DNA of 64,000 nucleotides from Alistipes sp. (GTDB lineage Bacteria; Bacteroidota; Bacteroidia; Bacteroidales; Rikenellaceae). Both the position numbers and the translations under genes were made by a program. Of this stretch, positions 3,058 to 63,358 are shown one piece after another; within the stretch, counting starts at the first letter, position 1; the number at the start of each line of letters is the position of its first letter. The notes below the pieces were generated by a model. It did not search any database. It was given only the letters and a program-made list of their open reading frames with translations, and was not told where the DNA came from. The stretch lies in the NCBI GenBank assembly GCA_045614985.1, contig JAZLDX010000025.1:39177-103176 (forward strand), in the 5' to 3' direction.

Positions 3058-4209
3058 ATGAAAAAACTTTTTCTTTTGGTGCTGTGTGCTGCTTTCGCAG
3101 TAAACACCTACGCACAGGAGGGTGAGGCTCCGGCCAAAAAACCGAGCAACAAAGGCTTTGTAACCAACGGATTCTGGGACAACTGGGAGATCTCGCTGGG
3201 TGTGGGAGCCGACTACGAGGGCATCGCCCTGGGTCACGACTACGGCAAGGCTGCCAAGACCATCGGTCTTGAGGTCAATGGCGCCCTTACGAAGTGGTTC
3301 CACCCCATCTGGGGTGTTCGCGGTCAGTTGCAGGGCGGCTTCACCATGGGTTACAAGAGCCCCACGGCTAAGGCCCGCACGGTGACCAACTTCCTCTTCG
3401 CCCACGCTGACGCTATGATGAACTTCTCGAACTGGGTAGGTGGCTACCGTGAGGATCGCGTATACTACGCCGTTCCTTTCCTTGGCTTCGGTTTGCTGGC
3501 TCAGGACGTATTCAACGGCAAGGTGTCCAACAACTACGAGTTTGCCGCCACGATCGGTCTGTTGAACAAGTTCCGCGTATGCAAGTGCGTAGACATCAAC
3601 CTCGAGCTGAAGGGTTGGGTTTATCCCGAGAACGACCACAGACTCGCTCGCGGTGGTCGTCTGATCACCTCGTTCAGCGCCACGGTAGGTGCTTCGTACC
3701 GCTTCGGTAAGCGCGACTGGGATCGCAAGGTGGCCGCTACCACCTCGGGTGCCGACGCTGCTGCTTATGCCGCTCTGCTCGCTGAGAAGGATGCCGCCCT
3801 GGCCGCTGCTGCCACCGAGGCTGAGGCTCTGCGCGAGGCTGCCAACAAGAAGCCCGTAGAGGTGGTTGTTGAGAAGCAGGTAGATGTTTATGTAGGTGGC
3901 AAGACCGTGGTATTCTTCTCGCTGGGTAGCACCAAGCTCACCGACCACGAAAAGATCACGCTCGACCTGAAGGCCGACCAGATCAAGAATGGTCCCGCCA
4001 AGAAGGTATACATGATCGAGGGTCACGCCGACTCGAAGACCGGTACCGCCGCTACCAATATGCGCGTATCGGAGGCTCGTGCCAAGGCCGTTTACGACTA
4101 CCTCATTGAGAAGGGTGTAAAGGCTGAGCAGCTTCAGTACAAGGGTGTTGGTGACAAGGCTGAGCCCTTCACGACGGCTGAGACGAACCGTGTAGCCATC
4201 ATCGACTAA
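3058..4209 (+). CDS. OmpA-family outer membrane protein
   Basis: Signal peptide, aromatic beta-barrel N-terminus, Ala-rich linker, C-terminal OmpA domain (FSLGS...GHADSKTG...N..VSEARAKAV...NRVA); TACCTTTG promoter at 2981-2988. Confidence 0.9.
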   Translation: MKKLFLLVLCAAFAVNTYAQEGEAPAKKPSNKGFVTNGFWDNWEISLGVGADYEGIALGHDYGKAAKTIGLEVNGALTKWFHPIWGVRGQLQGGFTMGYKSPTAKARTVTNFLFAHADAMMNFSNWVGGYREDRVYYAVPFLGFGLLAQDVFNGKVSNNYEFAATIGLLNKFRVCKCVDINLELKGWVYPENDHRLARGGRLITSFSATVGASYRFGKRDWDRKVAATTSGADAAAYAALLAEKDAALAAAATEAEALREAANKKPVEVVVEKQVDVYVGGKTVVFFSLGSTKLTDHEKITLDLKADQIKNGPAKKVYMIEGHADSKTGTAATNMRVSEARAKAVYDYLIEKGVKAEQLQYKGVGDKAEPFTTAETNRVAIID

Positions 4210-4334
4210 TTTTAGCGTGATAAGCGGCTGTCTGTTGCTGCTAAGAATAAACCCGACAATGGGACGTACCAAGTACTGCCCATCGTCGGGTTTCTTCGTC
4301 GAGCGTTGCAGCCAACCGCTTCTGACGCTAAAAT
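4209..4334 (-). repeat. Palindromic intergenic repeat unit, GTAC-loop-GTAC family (copy A, 126 bp)
   Basis: Nested stems ATTTTAGCGT/ACGCTAAAAT, AAGCGG/CCGCTT, AAACCCGAC-AATGGG/CCCATC-GTCGGGTTT around AC-GTAC-CAA-GTAC-TG. Confidence 0.8.
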
Positions 4335-4350
4335 CCCCCTCCAAAGGAAT

Positions 4351-21100: not shown

Positions 21101-21123
21101 TAACGACGATCGGCAGCCCAAAG

Positions 21124-21241
21124 TTTTTGATTTTAGGAGAAGATATTTTGCGCTAACGCAAACTACCCCGAATGGGAGGTACTTGTGTACCCCCCATTCG
21201 GGGTAGTCAAGGCGGTGCAAAATTTACTGCATAAATTAAAA
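21124..21241 (+). repeat. Palindromic intergenic repeat unit, GTAC-loop-GTAC family (copy B)
   Basis: ACTACCCCGAATGGG-AG-GTAC-TTGT-GTAC-CC-CCCATTCGGGGTAGT; outer ATTTTGCGC/GTGCAAAAT stem; left end TTTTAGGAGAAGATATT resembles TTTTAGGCGAGGATATT at 59501. Confidence 0.85.
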
Positions 21242-21242
21242 C

Positions 21243-21788
21243 CTATTTGGTGCGATAATGCGCACGATATTTCCCCTTGGTAAGGTTCGTGAGTTTGTTC
21301 TTGAGTAGATTGCGGCGCAGGGGCGAGAGGTGGTCGGTAAAGACCTCGCCCTCGAGGTGGTCGTACTCGTGCTGAATCACGCGAGCGGGCAATCCCTCGA
21401 TCCACTCATCGTGCTCATTGAAATCCTCATCCATCCAACGCATGCGGATGGCAATGGGACGGCGCACATTCTCATGCAGACCTGGCAGGGAAAGACACCC
21501 CTCATTGAAGAGGTCCGTCTCCTCCGACTCCTCAAGGATCTCGGCATTGATGAAAGCCTTACGATAATCGGCCAACTCGGGATGTTCCTCGGCCCAGGGG
21601 GTGCAATCCACCACAAAGAGGCGGATATTCTTACCGATCTGGGGGGCTGCAAGACCTACGCCCTCGGCCTCGCGCATGGTGAGAAACATATCCTCGATGA
21701 GCTTCTTCAGATCGGGGTAGTCGGGGGTGATATCCTCCGAAATATTTCTCAAAATCGGAGAGCCATAGATGACAATCGGGTAAATCAT
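21243..21788 (-). CDS. def: Peptide deformylase
   Basis: GVGLAAPQIG, EGCLSLP, QHEYDHL. Confidence 0.97.
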   Translation of the reverse strand: MIYPIVIYGSPILRNISEDITPDYPDLKKLIEDMFLTMREAEGVGLAAPQIGKNIRLFVVDCTPWAEEHPELADYRKAFINAEILEESEETDLFNEGCLSLPGLHENVRRPIAIRMRWMDEDFNEHDEWIEGLPARVIQHEYDHLEGEVFTDHLSPLRRNLLKNKLTNLTKGKYRAHYRTK

Positions 21789-25226: not shown

Positions 25227-26945
25227 ATGGCTACAATTTCACGACAGGCCTACTGCGACCTCTTCGGTCCGACGGTAGGCGATAAAATCCGCCTCGGGGA
25301 TACGGATCTCTATGTAGAGATCGAAAAGGATCTGCGCGTTTACGGCGACGAGGTGGTCTATGGCGGAGGCAAAACCTTGCGCGATGGCATGGGGCTGGCC
25401 AACGGCACCTCATCGAAAGAGGGGTCGCTCGATCTGGTCATCACCAATGTAACGATCATCGACCCCGTACTGGGCATCGTTAAGGCGGATGTTGGGATCA
25501 AAGATGGTAAAATTGCCGGCATCGGCAAATCGGGAAACCCCGACACGATGCCCGGGGTCTCGCCCGAATTGGTTACAGGAGCCTCGACCGATGCCATCTC
25601 GGGCGAGCATCTGATTCTGACGGCAGGCGGTATTGACGGCCATGTCCACATGATCGCCCCGCAGCAGGCCGAGGCGGCCCTCTCGAACGGAATTACCACC
25701 CTGATCGGGGGTGGCGTGGGCCCCACGGATGGCACCAACGGCACGACAATCACCTCGGGGGTTTGGAACGTGGAGCGCATGTTGGAGGCGGCCGAAGCAT
25801 GGCCGGTCAACATCGGGCTGTTGGGCAAGGGGAACTGCTCGGGCAAACAATCCGTAGCCGAACAACTCGAAGCGGGCTGCTGTGGTCTGAAGATCCACGA
25901 GGATTGGGGCTCTACCCCCCAGGCGATTCGCACCGCCCTGAAGGTGGCCGACCGCTACGATGTACAGGTAGCCATCCACACCGACACCTTGAATGAGGGG
26001 GGCTATGTCGAGGATACGATTGCCGCCTTCGAGGGACGCACGATCCACACCTATCACACCGAGGGTGCAGGCGGAGGCCATGCCCCCGACCTGTTGAAGG
26101 TGGCCTCGATGCACAACGTCCTCCCTTCGTCCACCAACCCCACCCTGCCCTTCGGCATCAACTCGCAGGCCGAGCTCTTCGATATGATCATGGTGTGCCA
26201 CAACCTCAATCCGAAGATCCCCTCCGATGTTTCGTTTGCCGAGAGCCGCGTACGCACCGAGACACAGGCCGCCGAAAATATGCTCCACGACCTGGGGGTA
26301 TTATCCATGGTTTCGTCCGACTCCCAGGCCATGGGACGCGTGGGCGAGAGCTTCATGCGCACCTTCCAGATGGCCTCCTACATGAAGCAGGCTTGCGGAA
26401 GGCTGAAGGAGGACTGCTCCGAGAACGACAACTTCCGCGTCAAGCGTTACTTGGCGAAGATCACCCTCAACCCAGCCATCTGCTTCGGCATTTCGGACTA
26501 TGTGGGCTCGATCGAAAAGGGCAAGGTGGCCGACCTGGTCCTGTGGGATCCCGCCATGTTCGGAGCCAAGCCCAAGATGGTGATCAAGGGCGGCATGATC
26601 AGCTGGGCCAACATGGGCGATCCGAACGCCTCGTTGCCCACCCCGCAACCGATGTGCTACCGTCCGATGTTCGGAGCCTACGGATCGGCCCTCAAGCGCA
26701 GCTGCATCTCCTTCGTATCGCGAGCAGCCTGCGAACTCGGCATCAAAGAGCGTTTGGGCCTCGAGCGTTGCGTGAAGCCCGTTCACCACACCCGACAGCT
26801 CACCAAAGAGCACATGTGGATGAATGGCTCGACCCCCAAGATCGAGGTAGACAGCCAAACCTTCGAGGTGCGCATCAACGGAGAGGTGGTATCGCTCAAG
26901 CCGACCGAAAAGGTGGCTCTGGGACAACTCTATTGGTTCAGCTGA
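25227..26945 (+). CDS. ureC: Urease alpha subunit
   Basis: Ni ligands and flap intact: [49 protein letters not shown]. Confidence 0.98.
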
Positions 26946-56604: not shown

Positions 56605-56795
56605 AAAGAGGTGAAGTATGAAATCTTTTTCTGCTCGAAAATCGAGAAAAAACGGGGCTCGGGAGGAAAAAACCACCGGAAAAGAGATAAAAAAGGTGGA
56701 AATGTTTGGTAAATCGGGAAAATCGTTTTACCTTTGCACTCCGCGAAATGTGATTATTTGAGCAATAAATAACTAAAAACGAGATAGCTATGGCA

Positions 56796-56957
56796 ATGAA
56801 AAGAACTTACCAGCCTTCGCGCCGCAAGCGTATTAACAAGCACGGTTTCCGTCAGCGTATGGCAACCGCCAACGGTCGCAAGGTATTGGCCGCACGTCGT
56901 GCCAAGGGTCGCAAGAAGCTGACCGTTTCGGACGAGTCGACCTTCAAGTACGCTTAA
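56796..56957 (+). CDS. rpmH: 50S ribosomal protein L34 (not in the ORF track)
   Basis: [53 protein letters not shown]. Confidence 0.98.
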
Positions 56958-56977
56958 TTCCCTCGGGAATTGGCCAT

Positions 56978-57016
56978 AGAATGGGGTGGTGCAAGGCATC
57001 ACCCCATTCTGTTTTT
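56978..57016 (+). terminator. Terminator after rpmH
   Basis: AGAATGGGGTGGTGC-AAG-GCATCACCCCATTCT-GTTTTT. Confidence 0.85.
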
Positions 57017-57132
57017 GATTTTATAGGGCAGATTTCACCTTGCCTTGCGCGCCCCGAATGGGTAGTACCTCTAGTACAACCCATCCGGGACTTGCTACGT
57101 TAAATCGAAATCTGCTCCTCTAAAATCAAAAA
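57012..57132 (-). repeat. Palindromic intergenic repeat unit, GTAC-loop-GTAC family (copy C, 121 bp)
   Basis: TTTTTGATTTTA/TAAAATCAAAAA, GGGCAGATTTC/GAAATCTGCTC, CCCGAATGGG-TA-GTAC-CTCTA-GTAC-AA-CCCATCCGGG. Confidence 0.85.
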
Positions 57133-57231
57133 AACGGGTGGCGTATTGGGAGTCTAAAAAAGGAATTTTGAATTATAATAATTCCCAATTATTTATTATC
57201 TTTGTATATCGAACCCGAACCAAAAGAGATT

Positions 57232-58583: not shown

Positions 58584-59162
58584 ATGTTTTTGGAAAGTTC
58601 AACAAAGAAGGGCTGGATCGAAGTGATTTGCGGCTCGATGTTCTCGGGCAAGACCGAAGAGCTGATTCGCCGCATGAAGCGTGCGAAGTTTGCCAACCAG
58701 CGGGTCGAGATCTTCAAGCCCCGTATTGATGTACGATATTCGGAGGAGGAGGTCGTGTCGCACGACTCGAATGCCATCCGCTCCACCCCCGTGGATTCGG
58801 CACAAACCATCCTACTGATGGCCTCGGATGTGGATGTAGTGGGTATTGACGAGGCCCAGTTCTTCGACGAGGGAATCGTAGAGGTCTGCCGCAAGTTGGC
58901 CGACAACGGCGTGCGCGTCATCCTGGCCGGATTGGATATGGACTACCTGGGAAAGCCCTTTGGTCCGATGCCCGCCTTGATGGCTACGGCCGAGTATGTT
59001 ACCAAGGTACATGCTATCTGTGTTCGCTGTGGCAACCTAGCCCACCACTCGCACCGCCTAATTGTGGATGACAAACAGGTGGTCTTGGGAGCACAGGACA
59101 GCTACCAGCCCATCTGCCGCCACTGTTTCACCGAAGCCATGAAGGCCAAGAAAAACGAATAA
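58584..59162 (+). CDS. tdk: Thymidine kinase
   Basis: [31 protein letters not shown]...Y.PICR.C. Confidence 0.96.
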
Positions 59163-59208
59163 CATCAATCGGTCAAAAAGGCCTGATTATTTCGAGATTA
59201 AACTTTTT

Positions 59209-59243
59209 AAAGCCTACCTAATCAATGGTTAGATAGGCTTTTT
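59209..59243 (+). terminator. Terminator after tdk
   Basis: AAAGCCTACCTAA/TTAGATAGGCTTT stem with a T tract. Confidence 0.65.
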
Positions 59244-59264
59244 CATATATAGCGGAATGAGATG

Positions 59265-59609
59265 TTAGGCAAGGGTATTCCGTGCCGACATGAAATTGGG
59301 GCGGATGGGTAGTACTTTCGTACGTCCCATTCACCCCAAGGATTGAAATGCGAAATTTTCCCCCCCTATTGCATGGTAAAGATGGGATACTAAGCGAGGA
59401 AATTCCGTGCCGACATGAAATTGGGGCGGATGGGTAGTACTTTCGTACGTCCCATTCACCCCAAGGATTGAGGTGCGGAATTTACCGCTTAGATTAGTCG
59501 TTTTAGGCGAGGATATTCCGTATATCGTAATAAGAAACCCGGGCGGGTAGTACTTGAGGTACGTCCCGCTCGGGTTTTGTTTAGGATATGCGGAATCTAC
59601 CGCATAAAA
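59265..59609 (+). repeat. Tandem array of three palindromic units, GTAC-loop-GTAC family (copies D, E, F)
   Basis: 70 bp identical at 59277-59346 and 59402-59471 (offset 125); third unit 59501-59609 keeps the fold with different stem sequence. Confidence 0.9.
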
Positions 59610-59612
59610 CGG

Positions 59613-62600
59613 CTAATACTCCATTTTTGCGTGGCGCTGATAGGTATTGTATCTCCACTTGGCATTCTCCTCGGCTGCCTGGAAGAGCTCCTCAGCCTCG
59701 GCGGGGAAGGCCTTCTGCAACGAGGTGTAGCGTACCTCCTTCTTGAGGAAGTCCTGGAACTTCGACCAATCGGGCTCCTTCGAGTCATAGACGAAGGGGT
59801 TCTTGCCGGCGGCCTCCAACTCGGGGTTGTAGTGCCACAAGTGCCAGTAACCACACTCCACGGCCTGCTTACCGACAGTCTGCGTGCGGGTCATTCCACC
59901 CTTGATACCGTGGTTGATACAGGGTGCGTAGGCGATGATGAGCGAGGGTCCGGGGTAGGCCTCGGCCTCCTTGAGCACATTGAAGAGTTGCTGCTGCGAA
60001 GCGCCAATCGACACCTGAGCTACATAGACATAACCATAGGTCATAGCAATGGCACCGATATCCTTCTTGCGGATGCGCTTACCGCTCGAGGCGAACTTGG
60101 CCACAGCTCCCACAGGGGTAGCCTTCGACGACTGACCACCGGTATTCGAGTATACCTCGGTGTCGATGATCAGGATATTAACATCCTGACCCGAGGCGAG
60201 GACATGGTCTACACCACCGAAGCCGATGTCGTAGCCCCAGCCGTCACCACCGATGATCCACTGCGACTTCTTCACGAGCCAATCCTTCATCTCGAGGATC
60301 TTCTGGCAGGCATCGCAACCGCAGGCCTCCATCATCGGCACCAGGCGGGCGGTAACCTCGGCCGAAGCCGACGACGAACCACGCTTCTCGATCCACTCCT
60401 TCATGGTGGCCTTCAATTCCTCGGAGCACTTGGCGCAGTTGGCAATGGCATCCTCCATGGCAAGCTGGATGCGGTCGCGGAGCTTCTCCACACCGACATG
60501 CATACCCAAACCGAACTCGGCATTATCCTCAAAGAGCGAGTTGGCCCAAGCGGGACCCTGACCCTTCTCGTTGGTGCAGTAGGGAGTCGAGGGGGCCGAA
60601 CCCGAGTAGATCGAGGTGCAACCCGTGGCATTGGCCACCATCATCTTGTCGCCGAAGAGCTGGGTAATGGCCTTGATATAGGGGGTCTCACCGCAACCGG
60701 CACAGGCACCCGAGAACTCGAACAGAGGCTGGGCGAACTGGAGGTTCTTCACCGACTTGGTCTTGTCTACGACATTCTTGTAGCCGATCTTCTCCACGCA
60801 GTAGTTCCAATGCTCGGCCTCCTTCATCTGGCTCTCCAGGGGCTTCATTACCAAAGCCTTCTCCTTCGAGGGGCAGACATCCACACAGTTGTTGCAACCC
60901 GTACAGTCGAGCGGCGAGAGTTGGATGCGGAACTTATACTCCTTGGTCTCACCCAAGCCCTGCTTGAACTCCAAGCCCGAAGCGGCAGCCTCCTCTTCCG
61001 TTGCCAGGAAGGGACGGATAGCGGCGTGGGGGCAGACATAAGCACACTGGTTACACTGGATACAGTTCTCCACCTTCCACTCAGGAACGCTCACGGCGAT
61101 ACCGCGCTTCTCCCAAGCAGCCGTACCGTTGTCCCAGGTACCATCCTCACGACCATTGAAAGCCGACACAGGGAGCAGATCGCCCTTCAGGGCGTTGATC
61201 GGATCCACGATGTTGCAGACAAACTCGGGACGCTTCTCGTCGGTGGTGCAGGCACAAGCCTCCTTGAGCTCAATCTCGGCCCAAGCGGCAGGAACCTCCA
61301 CCTTCTCTACGGCCGAACCTCCGGCATCCACGGCGGCGTAGTTCATATTAACGATATCCTCGCCCTTCTTGCCGTAGGACTTCAGGATGGCCTTCTTCAT
61401 CTCCTCGACAGCCTTCTCGAAGGGGATCACCTCGGCAATCTTGAAGAAGGCGGCCTGCATGATGGTGTTGGTCCGCGAACCCAAGCCCAACTCGGCAGCG
61501 ATCTTCGTGGCGTTGATGATATAGAAATTGATCTTATTCTTGGCCAAATAGACCTTCATGTGGTCGGGCAACGTGGCGCAGGTCGTGGCGGCATCGTGTA
61601 CCGAGTTCAAAAGGAACGAACCACCGGCCTTCAGACCCTTCAGCACGTCATACTTATCGACATACGAGGGGACATGGCAGGCTACGAAGTCGGGCGTAGT
61701 TACCAGGTAGGGCGAAGTGATGGGGTTGTCGCCGAAGCGGAGGTGCGACGAGGTGTAGCCACCCGACTTCTTCGAATCGTAAGAGAAGTAAGCCTGGCAA
61801 TACTTATTGGTCGAGCCACCGATAATCTTGATCGAGTTCTTGTTGGCACCCACCGTACCATCGGCACCCAGGCCAAAGAAGAGGGCCTCGAAGGTACCGG
61901 GCTTGGCCAGCGAAATCTCCTCGCCTACGGGCAGCGAGAGGAAGGTTACATCGTCGTTAATACCCACCGTGAAGTGGTTCTTGGGCTCAGCGGCAGCCAA
62001 GTTCTCGAATACAGCCAGCATCTGGGCGGGCGTCGTATCCTTCGACGAGAGGCCATAACGACCACCGATCACCATCGGCTGGTTCTCCTTGCCATAGAAC
62101 ATATCCTTTACATCGAGGTACAAGGGCTCACCATTCGATCCGGGCTCCTTCGTGCGGTCGAGCACACAGACACGCTTCACGGTCGTGGGCAGTACATCGA
62201 AGAAGTACTTCTCCGAGAAGGGACGATAGAGGTGTACGGTCACCAGACCCACCTTCTTACCCTGTGCCACAAGGTAGTCGATCGTCTCCTTGATGGTCTC
62301 GGTTACCGAACCCATCGCTACGATAATCTGCTCGGCATCCTCAGCACCATAGTAGGTGAAGGGCTTATAGTCACGACCCGTAATCTCCGAGATCTGCTTC
62401 ATAGCCTCGGCCACCATGTCGGGCACTGCGTTGTAGAACTTGTTCGAAGCCTCGCGGGTCTGGAAGTAGATGTCGGGGTTCTGAGCCGTACCGCGCGTTA
62501 CGGGGTGCTCGGGGTTAAGGGCCTTCTGACGGAAGGTCTTCAGGGCATCGCGGTCGAGCATCGCCGTCAAACGAGCCTCATCAATGAGTTCGATCTTCTG

Positions 62601-63143
62601 AATCTCGTGCGAAGTACGGAAACCATCGAAGAAGTGCAGGAAGGGAATGCGGGCCTTCAGGGCTACGATGTGAGCCACACCGGCCAAATCCATCACCTCC
62701 TGTACGGACGAGGTGGCCAACATAGCAAAGCCCGTCTGGCGGGTTGCCATCACATCCTGGTGGTCGCCGAAGATCGACAGAGACTGGGCGGCCAGGGCAC
62801 GAGCCGAGACATGGAATACACCGGGAAGCAACTCACCGGCGATCTTGTACATATTGGGGATCATCAGCAACAGACCCTGCGATGCGGTGAAGGTCGTCGT
62901 CAGAGCACCCGACTGCAACGAGCCATGTACAGCACCGGCAGCACCAGCCTCCGACTGCATCTCCACCACCTTGACGGTCTCGCCAAAGATGTTTTTACGT
63001 CCGGCAGCGGCCCACTCGTCAACGAGCTCGGCCATGGTGGACGACGGCGTAATAGGATAGATGGCGGCTACCTCCGAAAACATGTAGGCCACATGGGCGG
63101 CGGCGTAGTTACCATCACAAGTAATGAATTTCTTTTCTGCCAT
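59613..63143 (-). CDS. nifJ: Pyruvate:ferredoxin (flavodoxin) oxidoreductase
   Basis: YPITPSS, MQSEAGAAG, FTASQGLLLM, two ferredoxin motifs (CIQCNQC..VCP, CTGCNNC..VCP), GACAGCGE, GGDGW.YDIG. Confidence 0.97.
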   Translation of the reverse strand: MAEKKFITCDGNYAAAHVAYMFSEVAAIYPITPSSTMAELVDEWAAAGRKNIFGETVKVVEMQSEAGAAGAVHGSLQSGALTTTFTASQGLLLMIPNMYKIAGELLPGVFHVSARALAAQSLSIFGDHQDVMATRQTGFAMLATSSVQEVMDLAGVAHIVALKARIPFLHFFDGFRTSHEIQKIELIDEARLTAMLDRDALKTFRQKALNPEHPVTRGTAQNPDIYFQTREASNKFYNAVPDMVAEAMKQISEITGRDYKPFTYYGAEDAEQIIVAMGSVTETIKETIDYLVAQGKKVGLVTVHLYRPFSEKYFFDVLPTTVKRVCVLDRTKEPGSNGEPLYLDVKDMFYGKENQPMVIGGRYGLSSKDTTPAQMLAVFENLAAAEPKNHFTVGINDDVTFLSLPVGEEISLAKPGTFEALFFGLGADGTVGANKNSIKIIGGSTNKYCQAYFSYDSKKSGGYTSSHLRFGDNPITSPYLVTTPDFVACHVPSYVDKYDVLKGLKAGGSFLLNSVHDAATTCATLPDHMKVYLAKNKINFYIINATKIAAELGLGSRTNTIMQAAFFKIAEVIPFEKAVEEMKKAILKSYGKKGEDIVNMNYAAVDAGGSAVEKVEVPAAWAEIELKEACACTTDEKRPEFVCNIVDPINALKGDLLPVSAFNGREDGTWDNGTAAWEKRGIAVSVPEWKVENCIQCNQCAYVCPHAAIRPFLATEEEAAASGLEFKQGLGETKEYKFRIQLSPLDCTGCNNCVDVCPSKEKALVMKPLESQMKEAEHWNYCVEKIGYKNVVDKTKSVKNLQFAQPLFEFSGACAGCGETPYIKAITQLFGDKMMVANATGCTSIYSGSAPSTPYCTNEKGQGPAWANSLFEDNAEFGLGMHVGVEKLRDRIQLAMEDAIANCAKCSEELKATMKEWIEKRGSSSASAEVTARLVPMMEACGCDACQKILEMKDWLVKKSQWIIGGDGWGYDIGFGGVDHVLASGQDVNILIIDTEVYSNTGGQSSKATPVGAVAKFASSGKRIRKKDIGAIAMTYGYVYVAQVSIGASQQQLFNVLKEAEAYPGPSLIIAYAPCINHGIKGGMTRTQTVGKQAVECGYWHLWHYNPELEAAGKNPFVYDSKEPDWSKFQDFLKKEVRYTSLQKAFPAEAEELFQAAEENAKWRYNTYQRHAKMEY

Positions 63144-63358
63144 TTTTATCAGATTTTAACGTTATTTTCCAACTCAGTTTCCAACTAACCTATTTGATTT
63201 TCATCGCCTCTTTTTCACTTTTTTTTCAAAGCGCGAAAATTCGATGCAAAGATACAAAAAATTCGCCAAGGTTATCACACTTCAAGCGGTTGCAGAGATA
63301 AAATTTGACAAAAAAACATTTATCTTTGCCCAACGAAACCAAATATTATCAGGATCGA

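What the first reader, a model, noticed from the sequence alone, without database searches (positions are those of the whole stretch)
59265..59609. Tandem triplet of the palindromic unit between convergent tdk and nifJ: a recent duplication plus an older diverged copy
Seen in sequence: two units share 70 identical bp at a 125-bp offset. The third keeps the architecture (GCGAGG-A-W-ATTCCG ... GCGGAAT-YT-AC-CGC, an asymmetric AGG/AC loop and the GTAC apex) with almost entirely different inner stem bases. The array lies beyond the tdk terminator and directly under the nifJ stop. Inference: the family is still amplifying locally, in the manner of BIME/REPIN arrays, or the array stabilises the 3' end of the nifJ transcript.
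Basis: partly seen in the sequence, partly recalled or inferred. Interest (0 to 1): 0.65.

Follow-up and report, generated by a model that had tools for sequence, protein, structure and literature searches.

The report
Stop-codon hairpin repeats behind nifJ
The three look-alike hairpins between tdk and nifJ are a local row of a ~125-base repeat found about 60 times in this Alistipes-like gut bacterium, almost always starting at a gene's stop codon in one fixed orientation; no published description of such a repeat family was found here.

Summary
Three ~125-nt imperfect palindromes lie at 59255-59619. U1 and U2 share exactly 70 identical bp at a 125-bp offset. U3 keeps the architecture but has a different inner stem.

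The units belong to a dispersed family with about 60 loci in this 1.81-Mb genome. The family occurs in 16 of 25 genomes of the same genus. Its apex motif is absent from 400 other Bacteroidota genomes, from IMG/VR and from Rfam.

At 40 of 45 sites a unit or row begins at, or within a few nt of, the stop codon of a co-oriented gene. The triplet therefore belongs to nifJ, not tdk.

Two independent metagenome contigs of a sister strain carry only two units here: a U1/U2 hybrid plus U3. So copy number varies between strains. The U1-U2 junction is unique sequence, so U1/U2 is not a plain in-situ duplicate.

Related species have one unit behind nifJ, or an ordinary intrinsic terminator instead. No RAYT (Y1) or IS630-type transposase is present.

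My best reading is a REP/SPRITE-like hairpin cassette lying directly behind the stop codon that provides a terminator-like or stabilising end, with rows remodelled by recombination. The function and the copying mechanism are inferred.

The parts
58584..59162 (+). tdk (thymidine kinase) CDS. It is a neighbour of the array, not its host gene.
   Evidence: PF00265, E 3.8e-56; ORF list.
59209..59246 (+). tdk's own intrinsic terminator: a 16-nt-arm hairpin followed by TTTTTC.
   Evidence: Inverted repeat I3, 88% complementary; sequence. It is conserved in the sister-strain contigs.
59255..59378 (-). U1, the unit farthest from nifJ. Its core is intact and its nifJ-side outer arm is degenerate (GAAATGCGAAATTTTCCCCCCC on the + strand).
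   Evidence: CM R1 hit on the minus strand, 65.6 bits (G000:C25:98431-98554); fold; alignment.
59277..59346 (.). First copy of the 70-bp stretch that is identical in U1 and U2.
   Evidence: Exact run at offset 125.
59367..59389 (.). Unique 23-nt spacer (TATTGCATGGTAAAGATGGGATA) between U1 and U2. It is absent from the 2-unit strain allele.
   Evidence: Sequence; three-way alignment with L176 and L177.
59378..59504 (-). U2, the complete middle unit. Its core is closest to the single nifJ unit of the nearest congener, G008.
   Evidence: CM R1, 92.4 bits on the minus strand; fold -55.6 kcal/mol; comparison with G008.
59402..59471 (.). Second copy of the 70-bp identical stretch.
59493..59619 (-). 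U3, the unit next to the nifJ stop. Its outer arm pairs with the last nifJ codons and the stop (TATTAG/CTAAT). Its inner core is of the type II kind.
   Evidence: CM R1, 109.3 bits on the minus strand; fold -56.8 kcal/mol; comparison with the nifJ units of G014 and G012 and with the core-B units at rpsU.
59613..63143 (-). nifJ (pyruvate:ferredoxin/flavodoxin oxidoreductase) CDS, the host gene of the array. Its stop TAG is at 59613-59615.
   Evidence: PF01855, PF01558, PF10371, PF17147 and Fer4 domains.
21123..21245 (-). Another type I unit in the window, starting at the stop codon of def (peptide deformylase, 21243-21788, minus strand).
   Evidence: CM R1, 97.2 bits; def contigs from other samples break inside the unit.
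57009..57133 (+). Another type I unit, downstream of rpmH (56790-56957). It begins in the T tract of rpmH's own terminator hairpin.
   Evidence: CM R1, 121.1 bits; ORFs and sequence; relatives without the unit.
4206..4335 (+). Unit of the sister type II family (arms TTTTAGCGTGATAAGCGGC...GCTTCTGACGCTAAAA) directly after a TAA.
   Evidence: Weak R1 hit, 39.6 bits; sequence.

Best explanation
The triplet is a head-to-tail row of three members of a genus-wide family of ~125-nt imperfect-palindrome repeats. These repeats occupy the stretch directly behind stop codons, always with the same strand in the sense of the upstream gene. Here the host gene is nifJ. U3 is the old resident unit at the nifJ stop. 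U2 and U1 lie distal to it. Their identical 70-bp cores combined with diverged arms, and a sister-strain allele that is a precise U1/U2 hybrid, show that the row is remodelled by homologous recombination and gene conversion between units. That is how copy number changes between strains. Inferred mechanism: each unit is transcribed as the 3' untranslated end of its host mRNA. Its GC-rich core hairpin is followed by a U-richer tail only in the sense orientation, so it acts as a terminator-like or exonuclease-blocking 3'-end cassette. It stands in for the ordinary intrinsic terminator that related species carry at the same position. New copies arise by an unidentified copying process that does not use a RAYT or an IS630-type transposase. 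Shown: family membership, placement, orientation, strain polymorphism, and conservation of pairing. Inferred: transcription, the 3'-end function, and the copying mechanism.
For: Family: two rounds of nhmmer find 66 loci, 43 of them at least 83 nt long. CM R1 finds about 60 loci in the own genome.
Placement and orientation: at 40 of 45 sites a co-oriented gene's stop lies within 40 nt upstream. In full-unit coordinates the offset is usually 0, and TAA forms the first 3 nt of the unit. One apparent exception is explained by a missed rpmH gene.
Structure: 29 of 41 pairs show changes on both sides, 89.8% of cells are paired against 76.7% in shuffles, and 0 of 500 shuffles reach the observed covariation score.
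Sense-strand polarity: the 10 nt after the core hairpin hold on average 4.5 U in sense against 1.2 in antisense (p = 1e-6).
Lack of separate terminators: only 7 of 46 unit sites have a separate canonical terminator within 150 nt.
Orthologous gene ends: congeners carry the same unit, a sister-type unit, or no unit but a canonical hairpin plus T-run terminator. This holds for nifJ in G011, G009 and G015; rpsU in L180 and L184; and sites 9, 25 and 29 in G008.
Conservation: orthologous units of G000 and G008 are 90-98% identical with compensatory apex changes, while the neighbouring intergenic DNA cannot be aligned.
Strain polymorphism: contigs L176 and L177, from two different samples, have 328 nt instead of 450 nt between tdk and nifJ and carry a U1-arm/U2-arm hybrid unit plus U3.
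Against: No expression data could be obtained, so transcription and 3'-end formation are untested. The U tail after the core is weak (for example AAUCUUCGUU), and the simple terminator scan finds nothing in the array. All 40 full units fold more stably on the strand antisense to the host gene, by 11 kcal/mol on average. One A.C mismatch in the mRNA sense is conserved in 29 of 31 copies. This is the opposite of what selection on the mRNA hairpin alone would predict. The high similarity of orthologous units could come from concerted evolution rather than function. Near-identical copies at unlinked loci (11 pairs at 95% or more) show copying, which a purely selfish element would also explain. The sense strands lie on the G-rich strand 35:7, which hints at a link to replication.
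Confidence: 0.55

Rival explanations
1. The units are purely selfish, MITE-like mobile DNA. They are copied by a host-encoded or lost transposase into a preferred target (TAAT or a T-rich stretch at stop codons and terminator tails). The row grows by repeated insertion at the stop-proximal site. The units have no role for nifJ.
For: The units have terminal inverted arms, and near-identical copies sit at unlinked loci. Presence and absence differ at orthologous sites. At rpsU an extra type II unit in L181 and L185, compared with G000 and L182, is flanked by TAAT on both sides, which could be a 4-nt target duplication. Units within rows are usually separated by TAA. Truncated and half units exist. 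Contigs break inside units.
Against: No autonomous element with these arms exists in the genome. PF01797 (Y1/RAYT) and PF13358 (IS630-type DDE) are absent from every repeat-bearing congener, including a complete 3.8-Mb genome. A TAAT target alone cannot explain why about 90% of sites are the in-frame stop of a co-oriented gene, nor why one orientation is used. Units persist at orthologous sites across species with 10-20% coding divergence. The window's 3-unit allele cannot be derived from the 2-unit allele by inserting one whole unit.
Confidence: 0.27
2. The units are strand-specific single-stranded-DNA recombination sites, working like integron attC sites or IS200/IS605 ends. The better-folding bottom (antisense) strand, with its fixed mismatches, would be recognised by an unidentified recombinase. 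That enzyme would place units at gene ends and shuffle cores between them.
For: In 40 of 40 units the antisense strand folds better. Mismatch and bulge positions are conserved across types and species. Units are mosaic, combining arms and cores of different types: U3 has type I feet and a type II core, and G008's nifJ unit has U3's flanks and U2's core. The apex differs in a patch between strain alleles. Units show a replication-strand bias of 35:7.
Against: No candidate enzyme was found and Y1 HUH proteins are absent. The units follow ordinary housekeeping genes dispersed around the chromosome, not cassettes in an array. The R''/R' core-site motif of attC is not evident. For the 83% of units on the G-rich strand, the better-folding strand is the leading-strand template, which is the less exposed strand.
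Confidence: 0.1
3. The U1/U2 repeat is an assembly artefact: one unit was written twice in a metagenome-assembled genome.
For: The genome is a 30-contig MAG. Several contigs end inside units. Two other assemblies show only two units at this locus.
Against: An artefactual duplicate would repeat flanks exactly. Here the internal junction is unique sequence (a degenerate arm, a C7 run and a 23-nt spacer). U1's and U2's outer arms differ at about 12 positions. The 2-unit contigs also differ from the window in the apex (about 10 of 30 nt) and at scattered flanking sites, so they are a different strain and not the same reads assembled better.
Confidence: 0.03

Closest known systems
[quoted passage not shown] 2011, PMC3049150)
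   Same: Both are small interspersed repeats with a long duplex followed by a U-rich tract. Both are concentrated close to the 3' ends of CDSs. For both a co-opted terminator role has been proposed, and no mobilising IS is known. The distribution is limited to one species group.
   Different: There is no sequence relation. SPRITE is AT-rich with only AAAA/TTTT ends. Here the whole ~125-nt unit is one long imperfect palindrome, starts at the stop codon itself, keeps one orientation in about 95% of sites, and forms head-to-tail rows.
REP / BIME elements and REPINs mobilised by RAYT (Y1 HUH) transposases (Bertels & Rainey 2011, PMC3116915; Quentin et al. 2018, PMC6006769)
   Same: Both are extragenic palindromic repeats in tens to hundreds of copies. 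They show long-term vertical persistence at orthologous sites, compensatory evolution of the hairpin, clusters, and a location in 3' UTRs where REPs can stabilise mRNA.
   Different: No RAYT gene is present in any repeat-bearing genome. There is no GTAG/CGTC foot tag. Rows are direct rather than alternating as in BIMEs. The strict abutment to the stop codon and the gene-polar orientation are not REP properties.
ERIC / IRU elements of Enterobacteriaceae (about 127-bp imperfect palindromes, MITE class). This entry rests on my own knowledge and was not re-read here.
   Same: Both have nearly the same length and an overall long-hairpin architecture. Both lie in transcribed intergenic regions and 3' UTRs.
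   Different: ERICs occur in both orientations and are not anchored to stop codons. There is no sequence similarity and the host phylum is different.
Integron attC sites (own knowledge)
   Same: Both are imperfect palindromes of 60-140 nt directly behind ORFs in a fixed orientation. In both, the bottom strand folds better and carries fixed unpaired bases, and sequence varies while structure is conserved.
   Different: The units are dispersed behind housekeeping genes and not in a cassette array next to intI/attI. The R''/R' core sites were not seen. No integrase link was tested.

Membership tests
REP/REPIN-RAYT system | A cognate RAYT (IS200-like Y1 HUH transposase, Pfam PF01797) is encoded in the genome, typically flanked by REPs. 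| tested here: not met
   A six-frame HMM search of 25 genomes of the genus gave 0 hits in all 16 repeat-bearing genomes, including complete G011. The only hit is in G004, which lacks the repeats. The positive controls gave hits.
REP/REPIN-RAYT system | A conserved GTAG or CGTC tetranucleotide at the foot of the palindrome (Di Nocera et al. 2013, PMC3733652, abstract seen). | tested here: not met
   The consensus foot is TAATTTTTGATTTTATAGGG...CCTCTAAAATCAAAAAT. The conserved tetranucleotide GTAC sits at the apex, not at the foot.
REP/REPIN-RAYT system | Extragenic, multi-copy hairpin with compensatory evolution. | tested here: met
   About 60 loci, all intergenic. 29 of 41 pairs have double-sided changes and 0 of 500 shuffles reach the observed score.
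BIME (mosaic REP clusters) | Clusters of palindromic units in alternating orientation, separated by defined linker motifs. | tested here: not met
   Rows are head-to-tail, as in the triplet and at C3, C8, C10, C19, C20 and C26. The only inverted pair (C15 18016/18214) is two units serving two convergent genes.
MITE | Terminal inverted repeats. | tested here: met
   The outer arms TTTTTGATTTTA / TAAAATCAAAAA pair in more than 90% of copies.
MITE | Target-site duplication flanking insertions. | tested here: inconclusive
   One filled/empty pair at rpsU shows TAAT on both sides of an extra unit. Palindromic AT-rich ends make the boundary ambiguous, and no second clean empty site was found.
MITE | A parent autonomous IS with matching ends or transposase. 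| tested here: not met
   No long element is bounded by the unit arms in G000. PF13358 (IS630-type DDE) is absent from the repeat-bearing genomes. Other transposase families were not searched.
Intrinsic (Rho-independent) terminator | A GC-rich hairpin immediately followed by a U tract on the transcribed strand. | tested here: inconclusive
   The core hairpin has -17 to -29 kcal/mol. The sense tail holds 4.5 U per 10 nt against 1.2 in antisense, but there is no run of 5 or more U, and the consensus scan finds none in 59100-59700. Termination itself cannot be tested with these tools.
Any Rfam 15 RNA family | A covariance-model match. | tested here: not met
   No gathering-threshold hit lies in the region. 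Only chance-level eukaryotic miRNA/snoRNA matches appear at E up to 10 for the triplet and E up to 1 for three other loci.
Integron attC | A site next to cassette ORFs in an array beside intI/attI, with R''/L''-L'/R' boxes. | not tested
   Only the structural analogy was noted. The units follow dispersed housekeeping genes. No integrase search was made.

The most novel reading that the evidence does not exclude
The family could be a new class of gene-polar element that homes to translation stop codons. Its copying machinery would read the direction and end of gene expression, or a stop-codon/T-tract signal on one strand, rather than an ordinary DNA target. It would use neither a RAYT nor an IS630-type transposase. 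It would supply terminator-like cassettes that replace each other at the same gene ends across Alistipes species. The conserved apex (GAATGGG-NN-GTAC-loop-GTAC-NN-CCCATCC with its fixed A.C/G.T position) would be the handle for an undiscovered protein partner.
Probability: 0.15. Interest if true: 0.8.

Novelty: new variant of a known kind. Interest (0 to 1): 0.55.

Why it matters
Interspersed palindromic repeats such as REP, BIME, ERIC, BOX, RUP and SPRITE are known mainly from Proteobacteria and Firmicutes. Nothing comparable was found described for Alistipes, an abundant gut genus. This family has a placement rule much stricter than those classes: zero-distance abutment to stop codons, one orientation, and turnover of unit types at the same gene ends.

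If the units act as portable terminator or stabiliser cassettes, they bear on three questions: how 3' ends are made in Bacteroidota, how such cassettes spread without a recognisable transposase, and why MAG assemblies of these genomes break at gene ends.

In practice the nifJ row is a strain-variable marker (2 versus 3 units). The family also needs to be masked or annotated in Alistipes genomes.

Tried and rejected
Rfam searches gave nothing at the gathering threshold or at permissive E-values, for the triplet and for three other loci.

A direct empty-site comparison at tdk|nifJ failed. 80 tdk loci from GTDB genomes keep murA-tdk but never have nifJ downstream. In 15 congeners tdk and nifJ are unlinked.

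RAYT and IS630-type transposase searches were negative. A search for a long parent element with the unit arms found none.

The apex motif was absent from IMG/VR viral contigs. An exact search of JGI metagenome contigs for the nifJ end gave 0 hits.

A promoter/terminator consensus scan of the array gave nothing.

Literature searches for Alistipes with REP or MITE terms, and for Bacteroidetes with REPIN/RAYT, found no description of this family.

The idea that the array belongs to tdk was rejected, because tdk has its own terminator and the units are antisense to it. A simple tandem duplication of U1/U2 was rejected because the junction is unique and the strain allele is a hybrid.

I did not test the RPE-1 relationship or the cross-phylum spread of the apex that earlier scan notes suggested. 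I only established that the apex is absent from 400 other Bacteroidota genomes.

Full report
**1. The observation**

The region 59255-59619 holds three hairpin units. The longest exact match at a 125-bp offset is 70 bp (59277-59346 = 59402-59471). The repeat finder reports a 105-nt direct repeat at 90% identity. It also finds three in-register copies of both the foot motif and the GGGTAGTAC apex, at spacings 125 and 113.

- U2 and U3 fold at -55.6 and -56.8 kcal/mol. No shuffle out of 200 folds as well.
- U1 folds only in its inner part, because one outer arm is degenerate.
- tdk (PF00265) ends at 59162 and has its own hairpin plus T-run at 59209-59246.
- nifJ (PFOR domains) is on the minus strand with its stop at 59613-59615.

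The description is therefore correct.

**2. A dispersed family**

- BLAST, two rounds of nhmmer and a covariance model (R1, built from 31 copies) find about 60 loci on 20 of the 30 contigs of this 1.81-Mb genome. 43 loci are near full length.
- In the sense of the host gene, the consensus is TAATTTTTGATTTTATAGGGCATATTTTGCACC - variable stem - CCGAATGGGnAGTAC - loop - GTACnnCCCATCCGG - variable stem - GGCACAAAATCTGCTCCTCTAAAATCAAAAAT.
- Two foot subtypes covary: GCGGTAAATT...AATTTCCTCGC, as in the triplet, and AGGGCATATT...AATCTGCTCCTC.
- A sister 'type II' family shares the apex but has arms TTTGyCGTGATAAGGnGGC...GCCnCCTTCTGACrrCAAA. It is present in a few copies here (one at window 4206-4335) and is abundant in congeners.
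- Pairing is maintained by compensation. 29 of 41 pairs show changes on both sides, and 0 of 500 shuffles reach the observed covariation score.
- No Rfam family matches.

**3. Placement rule**

I called genes with a simple codon-usage caller (1,367 genes, 85% coding).

- At 40 of 45 sites the unit or row starts within 40 nt downstream of the stop of a co-oriented gene. This is in nhmmer coordinates. In full-unit coordinates the offset is usually 0, and TAA forms the first three bases of the unit.
- In a few genes the ORF runs into the arm and stops at the TGA or TAG inside TTTTTGATTTTATAG.
- One apparent exception in the window (57009-57133) follows the uncalled rpmH gene and shares the T tract of its terminator.
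- No unit lies between divergent genes.
All three units of the triplet are co-oriented with nifJ and antisense to tdk, so the array belongs to nifJ.
- Host genes are ordinary housekeeping genes: rpsU, rpmH, def, ssb, tpiA, dnaJ, fba, aspS, prfC, typA, a rubrerythrin gene and nifJ.

**4. Strand asymmetries**

- All 40 full units fold more stably as RNA on the strand antisense to the host gene, by 11 kcal/mol on average.
- The cause is a few positions that are A.C in sense and G.U in antisense. One of them, inside the conserved core, is present in 29 of 31 copies and also in other species.
- Conversely, the 10 nt after the core hairpin hold 4.5 U in sense against 1.2 in antisense (p = 1e-6). This is a weak terminator-like polarity.
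- Unit sense strands lie on the G-rich strand 35:7, while genes overall split 639:660.

These three facts are not explained by a single model.

**5. Distribution**

- The genome is Alistipes-like. Tdk is 84% identical to that of A. montrealensis.
- R1 hits 16 of 25 genomes of the genus, often with dozens of copies, and none of 16 genomes from other families of the order.
- In an even sample of the family it hits 3 of 7 genomes of the genus, one other genus with 9 copies, and two single weak hits.
- The apex motif occurs 40 times per strand here. It occurs 0 times in 400 other Bacteroidota genomes and 0 times in IMG/VR.

**6. The nifJ locus in relatives and strains**

The tdk|nifJ adjacency is unique to this genome. 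Behind nifJ the congeners differ:

- G008 (91% nt identity), G013 and G014 each have one unit, and G012 has a weak match.
- G011, G009 and G015 have a canonical hairpin plus T-run terminator instead.
- G008's single unit sits in the same locus-specific outer arms as U3 (TAG-CCATTTTA...TAAAACGACTAATC) but carries a U2-like core.
- U3's core resembles the nifJ units of G014 and G012, and also 'core-B' units seen at rpsU in other species.

U3 is therefore the older resident, and cores are exchanged between units.

Two ENA metagenome contigs from different samples (L176, L177) encode the identical Tdk protein. They have 328 nt instead of 450 nt between tdk and nifJ. They contain U3 plus one unit made of:

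- U1's tdk-side arm;
- a different apex (about 10 of 30 nt changed);
- U2's nifJ-side arm.

The extra 125 nt in the window are not a copy of flanking sequence. They include U1's degenerate arm, a C7 run and a unique 23-nt spacer. The simplest history is recombination between two pre-existing units that deleted one of them, together with gene conversion that keeps the cores of U1 and U2 identical. A fresh tandem duplication and an assembly duplicate both fit poorly.

**7. Other gene ends**

I used a concatenated query of 33 gene 3' ends. Orthologous sites in G008 and G013 carry one of three things:

- the same unit at 90-98% identity, with compensatory apex changes, next to intergenic DNA that cannot be aligned;
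- a unit of the sister type;
- no unit but a canonical terminator.

At rpsU a series of species shows 0, 1, 2 or 3 units. One extra type II unit is flanked by TAAT on both sides, which may be a target duplication. Only 7 of 46 unit sites in this genome have a separate canonical terminator within 150 nt.

**8. What could copy the units**

- PF01797 (RAYT/IS200 Y1) is absent from all repeat-bearing genomes. The only hit is in a genome that lacks the repeats.
- PF13358 (IS630-type) is likewise absent.
- No long element carries the unit arms.
- Eleven unit pairs at unlinked loci are at least 95% identical, so copying is recent. Its mechanism is unknown.

**9. Reading**

Shown:

- The triplet is a row of three members of this family in the nifJ 3' region.
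- The row differs in unit number between strains.
- Units are kept in one gene-polar orientation at stop codons.
- Pairing is conserved.

Inferred: the units work as terminator-like or stabilising 3'-end cassettes, interchangeable with ordinary terminators. I put this at roughly 50-55%. The closest functional analogue is SPRITE of the pneumococcus. The closest evolutionary analogues are REP/REPIN elements, whose defining RAYT is missing here.

A purely selfish MITE-like element (about 27%) and a bottom-strand ssDNA recombination site (about 10%) remain open. An assembly artefact is unlikely (about 3%).

**10. Limits**

- Gene calls come from my own simple caller.
- Only two transposase families were searched.
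- Earlier scan notes describe the same kind of family in other Alistipes genomes and similar ones in other phyla. I used them as leads only. I tested the orientation, strand-fold and RAYT points here, and found no spread of the apex within 400 other Bacteroidota genomes.

Noticed in passing
window 4206-4335 (+): A unit of the sister 'type II' hairpin family (arms TTTTAGCGTGATAAGCGGC...GCTTCTGACGCTAAAA, same GTAC apex) lies directly after a TAA. Type II is rare in this genome but common in congeners G008, G012, G013 and G014.
   Followed up: partly
window 56790-57133: The small rpmH (L34, 55 aa) gene is followed by its own terminator hairpin (AGAATGGGGTG...CACCCCATTCT). The T tract of that hairpin is at the same time the 5' arm of a type I unit (57009-57133). 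Relatives with rpmH-murA synteny lack the unit.
   Followed up: yes
window 59577-63188 (+): A 1,203-aa open frame on the strand opposite nifJ is a shadow ORF, not a gene.
   Followed up: no
window 25377-25677 (-): Rfam hit to 5_ureB_sRNA (RF02514, 52.3 bits, above the gathering score) inside the urease region.
   Followed up: no
G000 contigs C10 95250-96100, C3 65900-66400, C20 about 69600-69950: There are 'half units': the 3' half of a unit preceded by TGGGTGGTGTTTCTGAAAGTCAAAA plus a small hairpin GTGGCGTTACGCCAC. They are often in tandem with full units, and the same small hairpin occurs in G008. No Rfam match.
   Followed up: partly
whole genome G000: The sense strands of units lie on the G-rich (putative leading) strand 35:7, although genes overall are split 639:660 by the same local GC-skew measure.
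   Followed up: partly
tdk|nifJ junction, window 59162-59613: The convergent tdk-nifJ adjacency is unique to this genome among 15 congeners and 26 related tdk loci. The repeat row may therefore sit at a rearrangement junction.
   Followed up: partly
G000 contig ends (C26 start; C15 and C23 ends), loci L178/L179: Contigs of this MAG, and of other assemblies, end inside units. The family is thus a cause of assembly breaks in Alistipes MAGs.
   Followed up: no
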